Shown here in pieces: positions 11,214 to 24,819 of a stretch of 64,000 bases of DNA. Location: assembly GCA_026004595.1 (NCBI GenBank), contig BPJL01000001.1:26486-90485 (forward strand), written 5' to 3'. How positions within the stretch are numbered: the first letter of the stretch is position 1; the number at the start of each line of letters is the position of its first letter. Position numbers and translations under genes: made by a program. The DNA is from Patescibacteria group bacterium. GTDB lineage: Bacteria > Patescibacteriota > WWE3 > UBA101185 > UBA10185. The notes beneath the pieces were generated by a model that was given only the letters and a program-made list of their open reading frames with translations, did not search any database and was not told where the DNA came from.

Positions 11214-13040
11214 TTAATTTCTCTTTTCCAAGTCAAAGAGCCGGCTTCTTATAGCTATGTATCCGGGAGCTCGCAGATTGAAAACGGTTTTGAATGTGTC
11301 GCCGCTAAGGGTCACGGTGCCTTTATCAGTATCGAGAATGACTTTTGAGGTATAGCCGCCGTTGCTTATGTCAACATCAACCGAGGTCACCTTGGAGTAT
11401 TTCTCGCCGTATTTGTCAGCCTTTTCCGCCATTTCGTCCATGGAGTACGGATCGCCTCCCCAGCAGCTTGTTGTCACTGGGGAAATGTGATCCCTTTCGC
11501 TGTTTGTGCCTTTATTCCAGACAACGTAAGCGTTGAGTATGTCGGCCATCTCTTTTTCTGAAAGCCACGGGTGGGGATGGTCGCAGTTGTCGTTGCTGCT
11601 ATAGCTTTTTGTGTACCAGGCTTTATAGAACCATGGTGAGCCGGCTTTCTTTTCATAGGCGTTTCCGGGCCAGCTGCCATAGGTGTCCCATCCGACATTT
11701 TCTATATAACCGCCTGTGGTTGAGGAGTAGTATGCGACCACATCATTGCTCACGATTTTATCTTTTGTGTCATCAACTGCTTTTTTCCATCTCGACGGGG
11801 GGTTTTCGCTTTTGCTTTTAGAGAAGACCTGACAGTTTTGAGTGGTGCAAATGCAGCTTCCCTTTTTGTAGTACCTGTATGCGTAGGACCTGGCGGCTAT
11901 TGCCTGGGCTTTTAAAGCCTCTTCGGGCCAATCGCTTGGCATTTCAGCTATTCCGTACAGGTATTTTTGAAAATCCATGTTTCCATAGCCCTCAACGCAC
12001 AACTTGTCTGGAAAATCACTTTGTTCTTTAACATCAGTTTTGTAGTAAAACTTTATTATTTCCTTATAGTTTTTTCCTGCTTCCGCTCGGCCCTTGGCTC
12101 CGTATTGGCTCATTCCTTTGTAATGTGTGTATGCCCCGTAGCTAAAAGCCGCGTATGCAGGTTTGAATGGAGGATCAGGAGTTTTGGCTGATGGGGGTTC
12201 ATAATCTCCTACCGATCCGTATTCATCCCCGTACTTTTGTTTCAATATGCTCTGCTGTTTTTCTGAAAGTTCAGAGATTTCTTTTTCGAGATTTTGGAGC
12301 CTATTTTGGTAGGTGGTTTCCTTTGCTGTTACATCTCTTAGTTCGCTTTGGGCGGTGTTTTTTCGGGCGTCAAGACGGGATTTGACGGCGAGAAATTCGT
12401 TTTGGGTTTCTTCTAATTCTTTCTTTAGTTTTTCTCCTTCGGCTTTATCCTTTTCGTATGTGTCAATTTCTGAGTTTAGGCCTGAAATAATTTTTACGGT
12501 TTCATCAGTAACAGCTGCGTTAAAAGCTTGTGAGAGGGTAGCGAACTGGAAGCCGGTCAGGCCGAGGGGGTTGGATGCGAGGAGGGTCTCAATGTCATTG
12601 AGGAGGTGCCTTTTTGCGTAGGTGCGTAGAACTTTGTTTCTCAGAGAGATTTTTTCGGCCAGGCTGTCTTTTCTGTCAGTGAGTTTTGCATTTATTTCAT
12701 CAAGCTGTGTTTTGACTTTAGTGATTTCATCCTGGAGGTCGTCGATTTCAGCCTGGGTAACATTTAGCTGGTTGAGAAGGTCGTTTATCTTTTGGGAAAT
12801 CTCGTTTTTGGTGGCGCGGATTTGTTCAAGTTTGCTGCTGGTGGATTGGTATTCTTCTTCTTTTTTTTCTATTTGTTCGGCGTAGCAGTCAGCTCTGTCG
12901 TCGAGGTCTTGGATGTTTTTGCAGGGGTCGCCGGCTAGGGTGTTGGTTGAAAAATCTGCTATAGCAATCATTAAGCATACAGCGACGATTGTGTGTCTAA
13001 CCACACTTGCAATTTTTTTGACAAGGACAGTACTTATCAC
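11214..13040 (-). CDS. SpoIID/LytB-domain protein with a long N-terminal coiled coil (EnvC-like) and signal anchor
   Basis: N-terminal TM/signal. Residues ~60-250 are heptad-rich (Q/E/K/L) coiled coil. The C-terminal half contains SpoIID/LytB hallmarks (YKGMSQYGAKGRAEAG, YLYGIAEMPSDWPEEALKAQAIAARSYAYRY). Confidence 0.7.
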   Translation of the reverse strand: MISTVLVKKIASVVRHTIVAVCLMIAIADFSTNTLAGDPCKNIQDLDDRADCYAEQIEKKEEEYQSTSSKLEQIRATKNEISQKINDLLNQLNVTQAEIDDLQDEITKVKTQLDEINAKLTDRKDSLAEKISLRNKVLRTYAKRHLLNDIETLLASNPLGLTGFQFATLSQAFNAAVTDETVKIISGLNSEIDTYEKDKAEGEKLKKELEETQNEFLAVKSRLDARKNTAQSELRDVTAKETTYQNRLQNLEKEISELSEKQQSILKQKYGDEYGSVGDYEPPSAKTPDPPFKPAYAAFSYGAYTHYKGMSQYGAKGRAEAGKNYKEIIKFYYKTDVKEQSDFPDKLCVEGYGNMDFQKYLYGIAEMPSDWPEEALKAQAIAARSYAYRYYKKGSCICTTQNCQVFSKSKSENPPSRWKKAVDDTKDKIVSNDVVAYYSSTTGGYIENVGWDTYGSWPGNAYEKKAGSPWFYKAWYTKSYSSNDNCDHPHPWLSEKEMADILNAYVVWNKGTNSERDHISPVTTSCWGGDPYSMDEMAEKADKYGEKYSKVTSVDVDISNGGYTSKVILDTDKGTVTLSGDTFKTVFNLRAPGYIAIRSRLFDLEKRN

Positions 13041-13067
13041 AAGTTAATTATACCAAGCAAAATTTTT

Positions 13068-24000: not shown

Positions 24001-24819
24001 GTAAACCATTTGACAGTCCTTATAATAAAATGCGCCTTTAGTTGGGGTAGGGTTGTCCGATCCCAAAATGTTCACGTTATCTAAAATTCCCAATGGTGAC
24101 TCTCCCATCTTTGAATATCTATTGTCGGCGCTTTGAATTTCCAGCCAAAAATTGAATTCGGTGAGTGATGAGTAATTTGAACTAAACTTAGCTTCATATT
24201 GATGCTCGAGCGGACCCGGCGGGTCGCCAATCTTAGAAAAAGGATCCCTCATATCGCAAGATAGTCTGTTGCCCGGATCCACAGGATTGAGGGCTTCAGG
24301 ACAGGTTGAGGGCGCTGACACATCTGGGCAATTGACTATAACGTTATAGTTGAAACTTGTATACGAAGGTATCTTTGCTAAGTTTGCAAGCTTTCCTCCA
24401 CACATAAATGCAATATACCTAACCATCTTATTTCCAACTTTTCTTAAAGGTATTGAATAATAACCATATTGATCAGAATAGGTAGATGAGTAAAGGTTTA
24501 CTAAAGCACCGTTCCTTTTACACGTTGGCGAATTTGGATCGCATTCATATATACACACGGTAACACCTTGGGCTGGTGGATTAGGGTGTGTCAGAGACCC
24601 ATAATTGGTTTCAGTGGTCTTGGGCGTTGCTTGGCGAGTAATCCCACAAATGACAGCTACTCTCGGATCATTAGGGTTTCGACAGGTTGTACCTGGTTCA
24701 AAAATATTTGTTTGGGCGTACACTTTAATACCACCCAACACACCTGCTATCAAGAAAATAGTGAAAACAGCTAGGGATGCAGGATTTTTTCTTATACCCT
24801 TGTAAGTCATAATTTCCAA
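21001..24819 (-). CDS. Giant (1272 aa) Cys-rich secreted/surface protein
   Basis: N-terminal signal/anchor (LAVFTIFLIAGVLGGIKVYAQT). More than 50 Cys and abundant N/Y/G/P/S typical of extracellular beta-rich adhesin-like proteins. No catalytic motif was recognised. Confidence 0.6.
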   Translation of the reverse strand: MEIMTYKGIRKNPASLAVFTIFLIAGVLGGIKVYAQTNIFEPGTTCRNPNDPRVAVICGITRQATPKTTETNYGSLTHPNPPAQGVTVCIYECDPNSPTCKRNGALVNLYSSTYSDQYGYYSIPLRKVGNKMVRYIAFMCGGKLANLAKIPSYTSFNYNVIVNCPDVSAPSTCPEALNPVDPGNRLSCDMRDPFSKIGDPPGPLEHQYEAKFSSNYSSLTEFNFWLEIQSADNRYSKMGESPLGILDNVNILGSDNPTPTKGAFYYKDCQMVYDYPTNIYCYRPDGTGAGATNSDTLDSYEAKLYYDPYFARMNFLPNIPIKNTLLFFKDLTARQDITNYAQNPTATASLLQTIFSNCKGNVYLRKTGQNNFETLPPCSDLKACNSAVSETSNIYRNRQYIAGSARNLANPGILLTEAQAYIDDRIKNIEVCMLGSEKIKIGDIQPPWIYCTPGNDDCPYRLDKTYWNPEFAYFQGPKGATLRIPKEVEPYNDSYWNPSPNTVNQVAFSRGREKAGIPIEGGTLISDNNYSQARNNGLYSAMAGIISNARATTQHKLNYVLERPYETLEDKAIYQQGVVKIEDAGSNILSHCENSNVNSQDYEVTSATETGVLVNSDFRGPTDHYFGPIIDLEARNKKTATSAIFVTSAAATRDQGLAQGSPSYAKYLDLYDSYLTMSQGKGRYNILDILTVTVNWFFNDGAGTKSKSFLDRVSDYPLDQGIEFRDDIKVSFPLSEQNWSSFFWHPTSFGPSDALFTGNIANLWGPGHACYPWNNVPAGKHCYESDTFGVSNTPSDIRDTCRVNECAQITLIKECECYVVYNNNTSSWEVRSDCGPTQERVTACTNRQISSCAVEKKDCKDGGWDRGCMGLVEPGTPSCPENPGSSLYWPRGIGEYANCPNGQVAEPYESCHVYLTETSGPEFGCDLSDAGPYSSACAADLEKDANLRITENTIRREIEDISIDETRIVNNEGVKKWAHPGLKTISWGNLAFESTNTSVYRIESGVTPNNEALNKNKDVKAIGGISPAYKMVSAHPLYANISSGGNPVSYHCASCTLLPVPNPEIIDLTTFTRDSTYESCKLSTTLDCEQAFGIYNLSPTFRLILNAAAATFEVPAASLITYLKVVWAPSKPEYRYLFSVGGEQALLEASTPWYGRIGTCDDLSWAAQGPYDWLLSSFNNVISSGDFISIINNISNGRGETLSRCNFFDATFAMAKTLSDMGPREDCGSWSWEDAFNGIATEAFGSERIGAYDDGRLAEYWNQMANLWARCK

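What the first reader, a model, noticed from the sequence alone, without database searches (positions are those of the whole stretch)
11214..24819. About 13.6 kb cell-surface apparatus island: T4SS-like parts (VirB2-like pilins, VirB6-like protein, wall hydrolase, two giant exoproteins) with no ATPase in the window
Within one contiguous block there are six kinds of component. There is a SpoIID/LytB cell-wall hydrolase with an EnvC-like coiled coil. There are four tandem paralogous small proteins with a signal peptide plus 2-TM hairpin architecture, as in VirB2/TrbC conjugative pilins. There is a small anchored exoprotein. There is a 1267-aa protein whose C-terminal extracytoplasmic domain carries HELGH...DEYEDFAE (a zincin). 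There is a signal-peptide plus periplasmic-domain plus 5-6 TM protein with VirB6/TrbL topology. Finally there is a 1272-aa Cys-rich secreted giant. None has a Walker-A ATPase signature, so VirB4/VirD4/VirB11 equivalents are either outside the window or absent, which would make this a non-canonical pilus or surface-attachment system. Loci like this in reduced-genome epibionts are poorly characterised, and such a block is plausibly involved in host-cell contact.
Basis: partly seen in the sequence, partly recalled or inferred. Interest (0 to 1): 0.8.

Follow-up and report, generated by a model that had tools for sequence, protein, structure and literature searches.

The report
Pilus half of a Patescibacteria T4SS
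This block is the pilin, channel and wall-cutting half of the type IV secretion system already described in ultra-small Patescibacteria; its ATPase motor is not missing but sits about 68 kb away in the same genome, so this is an ordinary, split-up instance with a few unannotated lineage-specific parts.

Summary

The window comes from a 768-kb contig of a WWE3 (Katanobacteria) bacterium. There is no ATPase in the window. However, the same contig carries PrgI/VirB3-like, TraC-like (the family the literature calls TrsD) and VirB4 genes beside dnaN, about 67.7 kb from the VirB6-like gene. In other WWE3 and Microgenomates genomes these three genes lie directly downstream of the VirB6-like gene. The "ATPase-less, non-canonical" reading is therefore refuted.

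This is the pilus/channel module of the Patescibacteria T4SS described in 2023-2025, in a split layout.

New details:
- A divergent VirB6 family that sequence profiles miss.
- A 1267-aa membrane protein whose outer peptidase domain is swapped between genomes (HExxH, CHAP, M23 or C39-like).
- An orphan 1272-aa Cys-rich exoprotein family.

The zincin fold is not proven. Interest is modest.

The parts
8516..10330 (-). 604-aa membrane protein: N-terminal cytoplasmic part, one TM segment at residues 292-310, and a C-terminal outer part with a faint beta-propeller hit. It is a conserved left-hand neighbour and its role is unknown.
   Evidence: No Pfam hit. TIGR03866 propeller E 0.0045, far below its cut-off. 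TM segment. Found at the same place in 15 of 80 related loci.
10382..10621 (-). 79-aa two-TM protein of family DUF5657. Conserved neighbour.
   Evidence: PF18901 is precomputed for this gene on the source contig. Syntenic in L003 and L008, with tblastn matches in L005 and other loci.
10611..11165 (-). 184-aa protein with two TM segments and a C-terminal domain resembling a 'membrane-flanked' (bacterial PH-like) domain. Conserved next to the SpoIID gene.
   Evidence: phrog_3707 'membrane-flanked domain' E 5e-4. TM segments. Present in 21 of 80 related loci, next to the SpoIID gene in the loci inspected.
11214..13040 (-). 608-aa SpoIID/LytB-family enzyme with an N-terminal anchor or leader and a long coiled coil (residues about 40-270). 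Candidate wall-opening enzyme of the apparatus, a functional analogue of VirB1.
   Evidence: PF08486 E 6e-19. TIGR02669 119.5 bits against a cut-off of 83.3. 50% identical to the orthologue in L007, the best-conserved protein of the block. Next to the pilin array in 27 of 80 loci.
13077..13931 (+). Pilin 1 (284 aa): leader, a Cys-rich outer domain of about 140 aa (21 Cys in the protein), then a C-terminal VirB2-type pilin hairpin. Candidate adhesive or minor pilin.
   Evidence: PF18895 E 1.3e-5, 25.7 bits, over residues 233-301 of the 312-aa ORF. Cys count and TM segments. In relatives the first pilin carries other outer domains, for example Fn3_assoc and CHB_HEX_C_1 in L007.
13972..14307 (+). 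Pilin 2 (111 aa), a VirB2-type pilin. Candidate major pilin, because it has its own strong promoter-like and terminator-like signals.
   Evidence: PF18895 28.0 bits, above the 26.6 gathering score. NF045849 Mycoplasma ICE pilin-like E 1.7e-4. Promoter-like site 13869-13897 matches 11 of 12 positions.
14340..14361 (+). Terminator-like hairpin with 8 G-C pairs followed by a T-run, directly after pilin 2. Possible attenuator that sets pilin 2 above pilins 3 and 4.
   Evidence: The total number of such sites in the region equals the shuffle expectation, so this is a lead only.
14391..14699 (+). Pilin 3 (102 aa), a VirB2-type pilin.
   Evidence: PF18895 28.6 bits, E 1.5e-6. 35% identical to pilin 2.
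14702..15136 (+). Pilin 4 (144 aa): leader, pilin hairpin, and a short C-terminal extension.
   Evidence: PF18895 23.1 bits, E 7.9e-5, below the gathering score. Aligns with the other three pilins. Gene start taken from the contig's gene call.
15139..15747 (-). 202-aa protein with one N-terminal TM segment and an outer domain of about 170 aa. Bitopic like VirB8, but its fold was not tested.
   Evidence: TM segment at residues 12-30. Orthologues at the same place in 8 close genomes at 25-33% identity. No Pfam, PHROG or PDB hit.
15758..19561 (-). 1267-aa protein. It has a cytoplasmic helical N-part of about 880 aa that starts with two NPxFPGY motifs, then one TM segment, then an Ig-like beta-sandwich, then an HExxH domain (HELGH at 1170 and EDFAET). 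Proposed membrane-anchored wall peptidase of the apparatus.
19617..20945 (+). 442-aa VirB6-like polytopic membrane protein: leader, a helical Cys-containing outer domain (residues about 30-170), then 5-6 long TM helices.
21001..24819 (-). 1272-aa secreted or anchored Cys-rich exoprotein (gene call 1269 aa, starting at 24810). Orphan family. Its C-terminal domain of about 200 aa (motifs AQGPYDW and TASRCNFLD) also exists as a stand-alone protein. Role unknown; proposed surface or host-contact component.
   Evidence: 42 Cys and an N-terminal leader. Only 67 representatives among 1.84 billion proteins. No Pfam or PDB hit. Found only in the 'split' layout, between the VirB6-like gene and smpB, in 17 of 80 loci.

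Best explanation
The block is the envelope half (pilus, channel and wall-opening parts) of the chromosomal, MPF-FATA-related type IV secretion system that is typical of Patescibacteria. Here it sits in a WWE3/Katanobacteria genome where the system is split into two loci.

Shown:
- Four VirB2-type pilin paralogues.
- A protein with a VirB6 fold.
- A SpoIID/LytB enzyme.
- A membrane protein with a swappable outer peptidase domain.
- The cytoplasmic-membrane motor module (PrgI/VirB3-like, TraC-like/TrsD-type, VirB4 ATPase) about 67.7 kb away on the same contig, beside dnaN-jag-yidC-rnpA-rpmH.

Inferred mechanism, by analogy with the R388 and Gram-positive systems and with Southlakia genetics:
- Pilins are inserted in the membrane, extracted by the VirB4 hexamer that is docked through VirB3 and TrsD, and polymerised on a VirB6 platform into a thin conjugative-type pilus.
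- SpoIID (glycan strands) and the 1267-aa peptidase (peptide stems) locally open the organism's own wall, or the host's.
- Pilin 1, with its Cys-rich outer domain, and the 1272-aa exoprotein provide surface or host contact.
- The system supports epibiotic attachment or transfer rather than plasmid conjugation.
For: - PF18895 hits on all four small proteins, which are mutual paralogues.
- VirB6 fold.
- SpoIID above curated cut-offs.
- VirB4 P0183 is on the same 768,150-bp contig, at record 223269-225377. It has PF19044/PF01935 and Walker A and B motifs, and is preceded by PrgI (PF12666, 40 bits) and TraC-like (PF26593) genes.
- In L007 and in L028, L031, L032, L033, L039 and L048 the order is pilins, 1267-aa homologue, VirB6-like, PrgI, TraC-like, VirB4, dnaN.
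- Pilin genes lie within 10 kb of the VirB6-like gene in 68 of 80 species-representative loci.
- VirB4 is 74% identical between this genome and L007, while the VirB6-like proteins are only 32% identical. The ATPase is therefore the better conserved of the two.
- Published descriptions match: pilin arrays of 2-11 genes, PrgI, TrsD, virB4 next to dnaN/rnpA/rpmH, and no relaxase (PMC12102498). In Southlakia the T4SS and its pilin array are essential (PMC10633639).
Against: - No Pfam or NCBIfam hit for the VirB6-like protein, the 202-aa protein, or either giant.
- Physical or functional coupling of the two loci is inferred from synteny in other genomes, not shown here.
- No pilus has been seen in WWE3.
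- SpoIID and the three left-hand genes could be ordinary wall-remodelling genes that merely travel with the array.
- The presence of a coupling protein or relaxase elsewhere in the genome could not be checked.
Confidence: 0.85

Rival explanations
1. One reading: an ATPase-independent, non-canonical pilus or attachment organelle built from T4SS-derived parts. VirB4, VirD4 and VirB11 have been lost.
For: No ATPase or Walker A motif in the block, and none found in the larger ORFs of the window that were scanned. In this subclade the position downstream of the VirB6-like gene is taken by the 1272-aa gene and smpB.
Against: An intact VirB4 with PrgI and TraC-like partners is on the same contig, 67.7 kb away. 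The close relatives KatS3mg101 and GCA_964612565.1, and apparently RAAC2_WWE3_1, also have VirB4 on the same contig or chromosome as the block, judged by matching contig lengths. The ATPase is more conserved than the envelope parts.
Confidence: 0.04
2. The block is mainly a cell-wall growth or division cluster (SpoIID, a peptidase, membrane proteins). The 2-TM proteins are membrane proteins unrelated to pili, such as holin-like or immunity proteins. Linkage with the T4SS is incidental.
For: SpoIID enzymes, CHAP and M23 peptidases commonly act in wall remodelling. Two of the four pilin hits are below the Pfam gathering score. Housekeeping genes flank the block.
Against: All four 2-TM proteins hit only PF18895, and one also hits the Mycoplasma ICE pilin family. 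The adjacent protein has a VirB6 fold. The same gene order runs straight into PrgI, TraC-like and VirB4 in several genomes.
Confidence: 0.06
3. A degraded integrative conjugative element: the remains of a Gram-positive-type conjugation module.
For: The Patescibacteria VirB4 clade is nested in the MPF-FATA conjugation class (PMC12102498). PrgI and TraC-like/TrsD-type components are of conjugative origin.
Against: No relaxase, coupling protein or integrase family was found in the window ORFs scanned. GC equals that of the flanks. The block has the same chromosomal position next to smpB in many species. All components are intact long ORFs with conserved residues.
Confidence: 0.03

Closest known systems
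Patescibacteria (CPR) T4SS as described for Southlakia epibionticum (Wang et al. 2023, PMC10633639) and surveyed by Quinonero-Coronel et al. 2025 (PMC12102498)
   Same: - Chromosomal location.
- VirB4, PrgI/VirB3 and TrsD next to dnaN, rnpA and rpmH.
- A tandem array of divergent VirB2-type (PF18895) pilins. Identity within the array here is 18-35%, against a published mean of 25%.
- A VirB6-type channel protein.
- Wall hydrolases.
- No relaxase nearby.
   Different: - The system is split. The envelope module is about 68 kb from virB4, which is probably outside the +/-20-CDS neighbourhood that the survey analysed (my estimate from the distance; CDSs were not counted).
- The VirB6 homologue belongs to a WWE3/Microgenomates family that Pfam does not detect. 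The survey noted that VirB6 is 'scarce' in Microgenomatia and suspected extreme divergence.
- The conserved SpoIID partner is not mentioned in the survey's main text.
- Two proteins of about 1270 aa have no annotated counterpart.
Gram-positive conjugative T4SS (MPF-FATA: pCF10 Prg, pIP501 Tra, pGO1 Trs, ICEBs1 Con)
   Same: - Monoderm architecture without VirB7, VirB9 or VirB10.
- PrgI-type VirB3, a TrsD-type partner and a VirB4 motor.
- A polytopic VirB6-like protein.
- A membrane-anchored wall hydrolase. In orthologues of the 1267-aa protein this carries CHAP or M23 domains, as in PrgK, TraG and CwlT (my knowledge of those proteins).
   Different: - Those systems have no VirB2 pilins and use adhesins such as PrgB.
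- They have a relaxase and a coupling protein.
- Their hydrolases lack a cytoplasmic N-part of about 880 aa, and none is known to me with an HExxH domain.
R388 Trw (VirB/D4-type) T4SS stalk and Legionella Dot/Icm protochannel
   Same: The 442-aa model superposes best on TrwI/VirB6 (228 of 261 residues aligned) and on DotA (240 residues). VirB2-type pilins with two hydrophobic helices are present.
   Different: - Sequence identity is only 9-13%.
- No outer-membrane core complex.
- No VirB5 tip protein was recognised.
- The organism is a monoderm.

Membership tests
Patescibacteria-type (MPF-FATA-related) T4SS | A VirB4 ATPase encoded in the genome | tested here: met
   P0183, 702 aa, with PF19044, PF01935 and PF12846. 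It is on the same contig, Ga0246236_1000002. Walker A is AKSGSGKS and Walker B is ILIVEEAW. It lies outside the window.
Patescibacteria-type (MPF-FATA-related) T4SS | PrgI/VirB3-like and TrsD (VirB4 N-terminal-like) partners next to virB4 | tested here: met
   L010 7614-9296: PrgI PF12666, 40 bits against a cut-off of 27. L010 9298-9999: TraC-like PF26593, precomputed.
Patescibacteria-type (MPF-FATA-related) T4SS | A tandem array of VirB2-like pilins | tested here: met
   Four tandem PF18895 matches. They are paralogous over about 90 aa.
Patescibacteria-type (MPF-FATA-related) T4SS | VirB4 falls in the monophyletic Patescibacteria clade of the VirB4 tree | not tested
   No tree was built. The closest listed relatives (70-90% identity to the L007 query) that carry a name are labelled WWE3 or Patescibacteria.
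Patescibacteria-type (MPF-FATA-related) T4SS | Absence of a relaxase and coupling protein associated with the system | tested here: inconclusive
   None found in the 64-kb window ORFs scanned or in the 22 kb around virB4. The rest of the 768-kb contig could not be read.
T4SS_pilin (PF18895) / VirB2-TrbC-type pilins | Profile match at or above the gathering score, with a two-hydrophobic-helix hairpin | tested here: met
   Pilins 2 and 3 score 28.0 and 28.6 bits, above 26.6. Pilins 1 and 4 score 25.7 and 23.1 bits, below the cut-off but with E no worse than 8e-5 and clearly paralogous. All four have two TM helices. Polymerisation into a pilus cannot be tested here.
VirB6/TrbL (PF04610) family | Sequence-profile match to TrbL/VirB6 | tested here: not met
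   None of the 53 family members matches it at E up to 1. The family profile has no hit among PDB sequences.
VirB6/TrbL (PF04610) family | VirB6 fold: a bundle of 5 or more long membrane helices as in TrwI and DotA | tested here: met
VirB6/TrbL (PF04610) family | Gene adjacent to virB3 and virB4 | tested here: met
   Not adjacent in this genome (67.7 kb apart). Directly adjacent in L007, L028, L031, L032, L033, L039 and L048. PrgI follows the VirB6-like gene within 10 kb in 22 of 80 loci.
SpoIID/LytB | Match to the SpoIID domain above curated cut-offs | tested here: met
   PF08486 68.9 bits against 23. TIGR02669 119.5 bits against 83.3. Enzyme activity was not tested.
Zincin metallopeptidases (HExxH) | A conserved HExxH motif plus a downstream third ligand or acid | tested here: met
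   AHExxHxY and ED[FM][AS]ETxG are invariant in 7 orthologues. The motif pair occurs in 11 of the 29 genomic tails scanned, and HExxH in 13.
Zincin metallopeptidases (HExxH) | A significant profile or fold match to a known zincin family | tested here: inconclusive
VirB1-type / PrgK-TraG-type T4SS wall hydrolase | A lytic transglycosylase and/or CHAP domain | tested here: not met
   The window's 1267-aa protein has neither. Orthologues have CHAP (5), M23 (2) or C39-like (2) tails. The resemblance is therefore functional and positional, not membership.
VirB8 / PrgL / TraM (NTF2-like bitopic protein) | An N-terminal TM segment plus an NTF2-like outer domain | not tested
   The 202-aa protein has the bitopic topology.

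The most novel reading that the evidence does not exclude
In WWE3 and Microgenomates the T4SS has recruited lineage-specific giant envelope proteins. The 1267-aa protein would link the cytoplasmic side of the machine, through an N-part of about 880 aa with invariant NPxFPGY motifs, to an exchangeable outer peptidase (HExxH, CHAP, M23 or C39-like) that is aimed at the host's cell wall rather than the organism's own. The peptidase type would then track host envelope chemistry and act as a host-range determinant. The 1272-aa Cys-rich exoprotein would be the pilus-associated host adhesin or a secreted substrate.
Probability: 0.2. Interest if true: 0.6.

Novelty: new member of a known kind. Interest (0 to 1): 0.35.

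Why it matters
The main value is corrective. A block that looks like an ATPase-less, exotic surface apparatus is the envelope half of the already described Patescibacteria T4SS. Its motor is encoded 68 kb away.

Three points are useful for annotating these genomes:
- The 442-aa family gives a structural VirB6 candidate for WWE3 and Microgenomates. It was found in 213 species-representative genomes. A published HMM survey found VirB6 scarce in Microgenomatia and suspected extreme divergence.
- Surveys restricted to +/-20 genes around virB4 would probably miss the pilin, VirB6 and hydrolase module in split genomes like this one.
- SpoIID and the modular-peptidase giant are conserved partners. 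They are candidates for the 'missing VirB1' function and possibly for host-wall attack.

None of this changes the current picture of how these systems work.

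Tried and rejected
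- **TrbL/VirB6 by sequence.** I scanned 53 members of the 442-aa family against Pfam and ran the family profile against PDB sequences. There was no T4SS hit. Only the fold comparison worked.
- **afdb50 fold library.** It was not available.
- **Lytic transglycosylase idea for the 1272-aa protein.** My reading of its C-terminal domain (the AQGPYDW motif) as a lytic transglycosylase is unsupported. There was no Pfam hit in 14 orthologues or 10 stand-alone homologues, and no PDB hit for two profiles.
- **Phage tape-measure idea.** A long helical protein with a terminal lysin domain suggested this for the 1267-aa protein. Neither giant has a PHROG match, and the full-length profile has no PDB hit.
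- **M23-like tail in L007.** I read this by eye from the motif HAHLE. Pfam does not confirm it for L007 itself, though two other orthologues have true M23 tails.
- **Horizontally acquired island.** Rejected on composition and on conserved synteny.
- **Promoter and terminator scan.** Site totals equal the shuffle expectation. Only the individual sites around pilin 2 are noted, and only as leads.

Full report
**What is in the window**

The interval 11214-24819 holds nine long ORFs in four alternating transcription directions.

On the minus strand, 11214-13040 encodes a 608-aa protein with three parts. It has an N-terminal hydrophobic segment and a long stretch (residues about 40-270) that attracts only coiled-coil-type profile hits. 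It also has a SpoIID domain: PF08486 at E 6e-19, and TIGR02669 SpoIID_LytB at 119.5 bits against a cut-off of 83.3.

Four genes run divergently from it on the plus strand: 13077-13931, 13972-14307, 14391-14699 and 14702-15136.
- Each hits exactly one Pfam family, PF18895 T4SS_pilin, with E 1.3e-5, 2.4e-6, 1.5e-6 and 7.9e-5. Two are above and two just below the 26.6-bit gathering score.
- One also weakly hits the Mycoplasma ICE pilin-like family NF045849.
- They align with each other over about 90 residues as helix, loop (GDP/GDK) and helix, at 18-35% identity.
- The first carries a Cys-rich outer domain of about 140 aa ahead of the pilin hairpin; the protein has 21 Cys.

Then follow, in order:
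- on the minus strand, a 202-aa bitopic protein;
- a 1267-aa protein with a single TM segment near residue 883-901 and HELGH at residue 1170;
- on the plus strand, a 442-aa polytopic protein;
- on the minus strand, a 1272-aa protein with an N-terminal leader and 42 Cys.

None of these four has a Pfam, NCBIfam or PHROG match. No block protein has a Walker A motif. None of the larger ORFs in the 64-kb window that I scanned against Pfam belongs to a VirB4, VirD4 or VirB11 family. Three small corrections apply: pilins 2 and 3 lack an obvious leader, some gene starts differ slightly, and GC is the same inside and outside the block.

**Where it comes from**

The 442-aa protein is encoded on JGI contig Ga0246236_1000002, which is 768,150 bp long. 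Window position 1 corresponds to about record position 132,267. Its nearest named relatives are from candidate division WWE3 and a hot-spring "Patescibacteria group bacterium" MAG. The organism is thus a WWE3 (Katanobacteria) member of the Patescibacteria, with a genome of well under 1 Mb.

**Is the 442-aa protein a VirB6?**

By sequence it is not. None of 53 family members matches TrbL/VirB6 or any other informative Pfam family at E up to 1. The family profile finds nothing among PDB sequences.

**The missing ATPase**

In a more distant relative, L007, the VirB6-like protein is 32% identical. There the same gene order (SpoIID, pilins, a 1019-aa homologue of the 1267-aa protein, VirB6-like) runs directly into three further genes:
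- a 592-aa PrgI-like protein,
- a 233-aa TraC-like protein (PF26593),
- a DUF87/P-loop_TraG VirB4 ATPase.

These are followed by dnaN, jag, yidC and rnpA.

I searched with that VirB4. It returned thousands of close relatives. One of them, P0183, is 74% identical and its longest contig is 768,150 bp. Looking it up shows it is on the very contig of the window, at record 223,269-225,377. It is preceded by a 560-aa PrgI/CarboxypepD_reg protein and a 233-aa TraC-like protein. It is followed by dnaN-jag-yidC-yidD-rnpA-rpmH. It has an intact Walker A (AKSGSGKS) and a Walker B-like ILIVEEAW.

The PrgI-like gene starts about 24.6 kb beyond the window's right end and 67.7 kb from the end of the VirB6-like gene (coordinates). 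The same appears to hold in three relatives, judging from matching contig lengths in the hit table. In the KatS3mg101 MAG the VirB6-like gene is _0052 and VirB4 is _0135. The others are GCA_964612565.1 and the complete genome RAAC2_WWE3_1. So the ATPase is outside the window but not absent.

**How general is the arrangement?**

A scan of one genome per species with the VirB6-like alignment found 213 genomes encoding a relative. The best 80 loci are from WWE3 and Microgenomates (Gottesman-, Woese-, Shapiro-, Roizman-, Collier- and Beckwithbacteria), as far as their record titles can be trusted. A tblastn census within 10 kb of the VirB6-like gene gave these counts out of 80 loci:

| Component | Loci | Position where hits were found |
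|---|---|---|
| Pilin genes | 68 | nearby |
| 1267-aa homologue | 29 | upstream on the opposite strand (one exception, L062) |
| SpoIID | 27 | upstream |
| PrgI | 22 | downstream, same strand |
| TraC-like (TrsD-type) | 20 | downstream, same strand |
| VirB4 | 16 | downstream, same strand |
| 1272-aa homologue | 17 | downstream |

Two layouts recur:
- **Contiguous:** pilins, giant, VirB6-like, PrgI, TraC-like, VirB4, dnaN. Examples are L007, L028, L031-L033, L039 and L048.
- **Split:** VirB6-like, 1272-aa gene, smpB, with no VirB4 within 10 kb. Examples are the window, L012-L020, L023-L025 and L034-L038.

The window belongs to the split layout. Three further genes on the left (the 604-aa protein, DUF5657 and the 184-aa protein) travel with SpoIID in 13-21 loci.

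**The two giants**

*The 1267-aa protein.* Its family is confined to WWE3-type genomes. No leader precedes the first 880 residues, which are helical. They begin with two invariant NPxFPGY motifs. The single TM segment therefore puts this part in the cytoplasm and the C-terminal 350 residues outside.

In seven orthologues the motifs AHExxHxY and ED[FM][AS]ETxG are invariant, along with several Cys. The only profile similarities are sub-threshold: SprT-like at E 0.061, and the M. jannaschii protein MJ1213 at E 0.066. MJ1213 is selecase, a minimal gluzincin, by my knowledge of that protein. The model is unreliable beyond the HExxH helix. The zincin assignment therefore rests on motifs alone.

The strongest functional clue is domain replacement. 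Across the genomes examined, HExxH occurs in 13 of 29 tails, with EDFAET alongside it in 11. Among the 28 tails scanned against Pfam, others carry CHAP (5), Peptidase_M23 (2, best E 1.6e-21) or a C39-like cysteine peptidase (2). The swap occurs even between proteins that are about 50% identical in the N-part. CHAP and M23 are classic peptidoglycan peptidases. I infer that the HExxH domain is also a wall peptidase and that the protein plays the hydrolase role that PrgK, TraG and CwlT play in Gram-positive T4SSs (my knowledge of those proteins). It is not a member of those families.

*The 1272-aa protein.* It belongs to a tiny orphan family, with 67 representatives among 1.84 billion. Many Cys are invariant. 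Its C-terminal domain of about 200 aa also exists as a stand-alone protein. Nothing in Pfam or the PDB matches it. Its function remains an inference from position and secretion signals.

**Comparison with the literature**

The T4SS of Patescibacteria is a described system. In Southlakia epibionticum, a Gram-positive-like T4SS with an essential array of predicted pilins is required for epibiotic growth (PMC10633639). A survey of 3,035 genomes reported the following (PMC12102498):
- a Patescibacteria VirB4 clade nested in MPF-FATA;
- TrsD and PrgI next to virB4;
- VirB2-like arrays of 2-11 genes with about 25% mean identity;
- virB4 close to dnaN, dnaA, rnpA and rpmH;
- almost no relaxases;
- VirB6 scarce in Microgenomatia, "suggesting extreme sequence divergence".

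A 2025 review lists these systems as the one exception among monoderm T4SSs in having VirB2 pilins (PMC12857230).

The window's block fits this description point by point. What it adds:
- a concrete, structure-supported VirB6 candidate for WWE3 and Microgenomates;
- the observation that in part of WWE3 the envelope module sits far from virB4, probably beyond the +/-20-CDS neighbourhood used in that survey (my estimate from the 67.7-kb distance; I did not count CDSs);
- conserved SpoIID, modular-peptidase and Cys-rich partners.

**Mechanism**

Shown here: the parts list, their topology, the VirB6 fold, the presence and integrity of the VirB4 module in the same genome, and the synteny linking the two modules.

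Inferred from the R388 architecture and Gram-positive systems (my knowledge of those systems):
- VirB4, docked through PrgI/VirB3 and TrsD, extracts membrane-inserted pilins and feeds them to a VirB6 platform, which extrudes a thin pilus.
- SpoIID and the 1267-aa peptidase open the wall.
- Pilin 1, with its Cys-rich ectodomain, and the 1272-aa exoprotein mediate contact.
- Pilin 2 may be the major subunit. It has an 11-of-12 promoter-like site at 13869-13897 and a perfect 8-bp G-C hairpin with a T-run at 14340-14361 right after it. This is only a lead.

What the system transports, if anything, is unknown, as it is for all Patescibacteria T4SSs.

**Verdict**

The finding is real, and its T4SS reading is right. 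Its most interesting claim, an apparatus without an ATPase, is wrong. This is a new, split-locus member of a known kind, with some unannotated lineage-specific components.

Noticed in passing
window 46000-56000: A low-GC stretch (32-34%, against about 41% elsewhere) carries a carotenoid-type gene set: lycopene cyclase 49344-50030, phytoene desaturase-like 50020-51504, phytoene synthase 51626-52498, UbiA prenyltransferase 52470-53291 and polyprenyl synthase 53319-54392. A P-type cation ATPase lies next to it at 46255-48714. This is unusual for a reduced Patescibacteria genome, to my knowledge, and may be horizontally acquired.
   Followed up: partly
window 57318-60483: Type I restriction-modification genes: an HsdM-like N6 methylase (598 aa) and an HsdS specificity subunit (466 aa). 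No HsdR was recognised in the ORFs scanned.
   Followed up: no
window 19480-19561 (N-terminus of the 1267-aa protein): Two tandem NP[FL]FPGY motifs lie in the first 30 residues. They are invariant or nearly so in 12 orthologues. This is a candidate docking motif on the cytoplasmic side.
   Followed up: no
window 13869-14361: Pilin 2 is bracketed by the best promoter-like site of the region (TTGTCA-17-TATAAT) and by a perfect 8-bp G-C hairpin with a T-run. It may be expressed on its own as the major pilin.
   Followed up: partly
L007 1993-3825 and 5031-6245; L003 3022-4107; L008 3404-4816: The first (and sometimes the last) gene of the pilin array is a fusion of a variable outer domain to a C-terminal pilin hairpin. 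The outer domain is Fn3_assoc/CHB_HEX_C_1 in L007 and Cys-rich in the window. Lengths range from 224 to 610 aa, which suggests exchangeable adhesive pilins.
   Followed up: partly
L009 2725-6005: Two tandem paralogues of the VirB6-like gene (568 and 508 aa) sit between homologues of the two giants.
   Followed up: no
L010 10001-12109 versus L007 13957-15477: VirB4 is 74% identical between these two genomes, while their VirB6-like proteins are 32% identical and their pilins 25-40% identical. The motor is therefore much better conserved than the envelope parts.
   Followed up: partly
L018, L026, L028, L030-L032, L035-L037, L040, L042, L043, L045, L046, L049, L054, L058-L060, L065, L066, L070, L073-L076, L078, L081, L083, L085, L087, L088, L091: Many MAG records that carry this WWE3/Microgenomates-type gene are titled 'uncultured Candidatus Saccharibacteria', 'Pseudomonadales', 'Gammaproteobacteria' or 'Syntrophaceae'. 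The labels look unreliable.
   Followed up: no
window 8516-11165: Three genes are conserved to the left of SpoIID in WWE3 and some Microgenomates: a 604-aa TM protein with a faint propeller hit, a DUF5657 protein, and a 184-aa protein with a membrane-flanked-like domain. They may belong to the same apparatus.
   Followed up: partly
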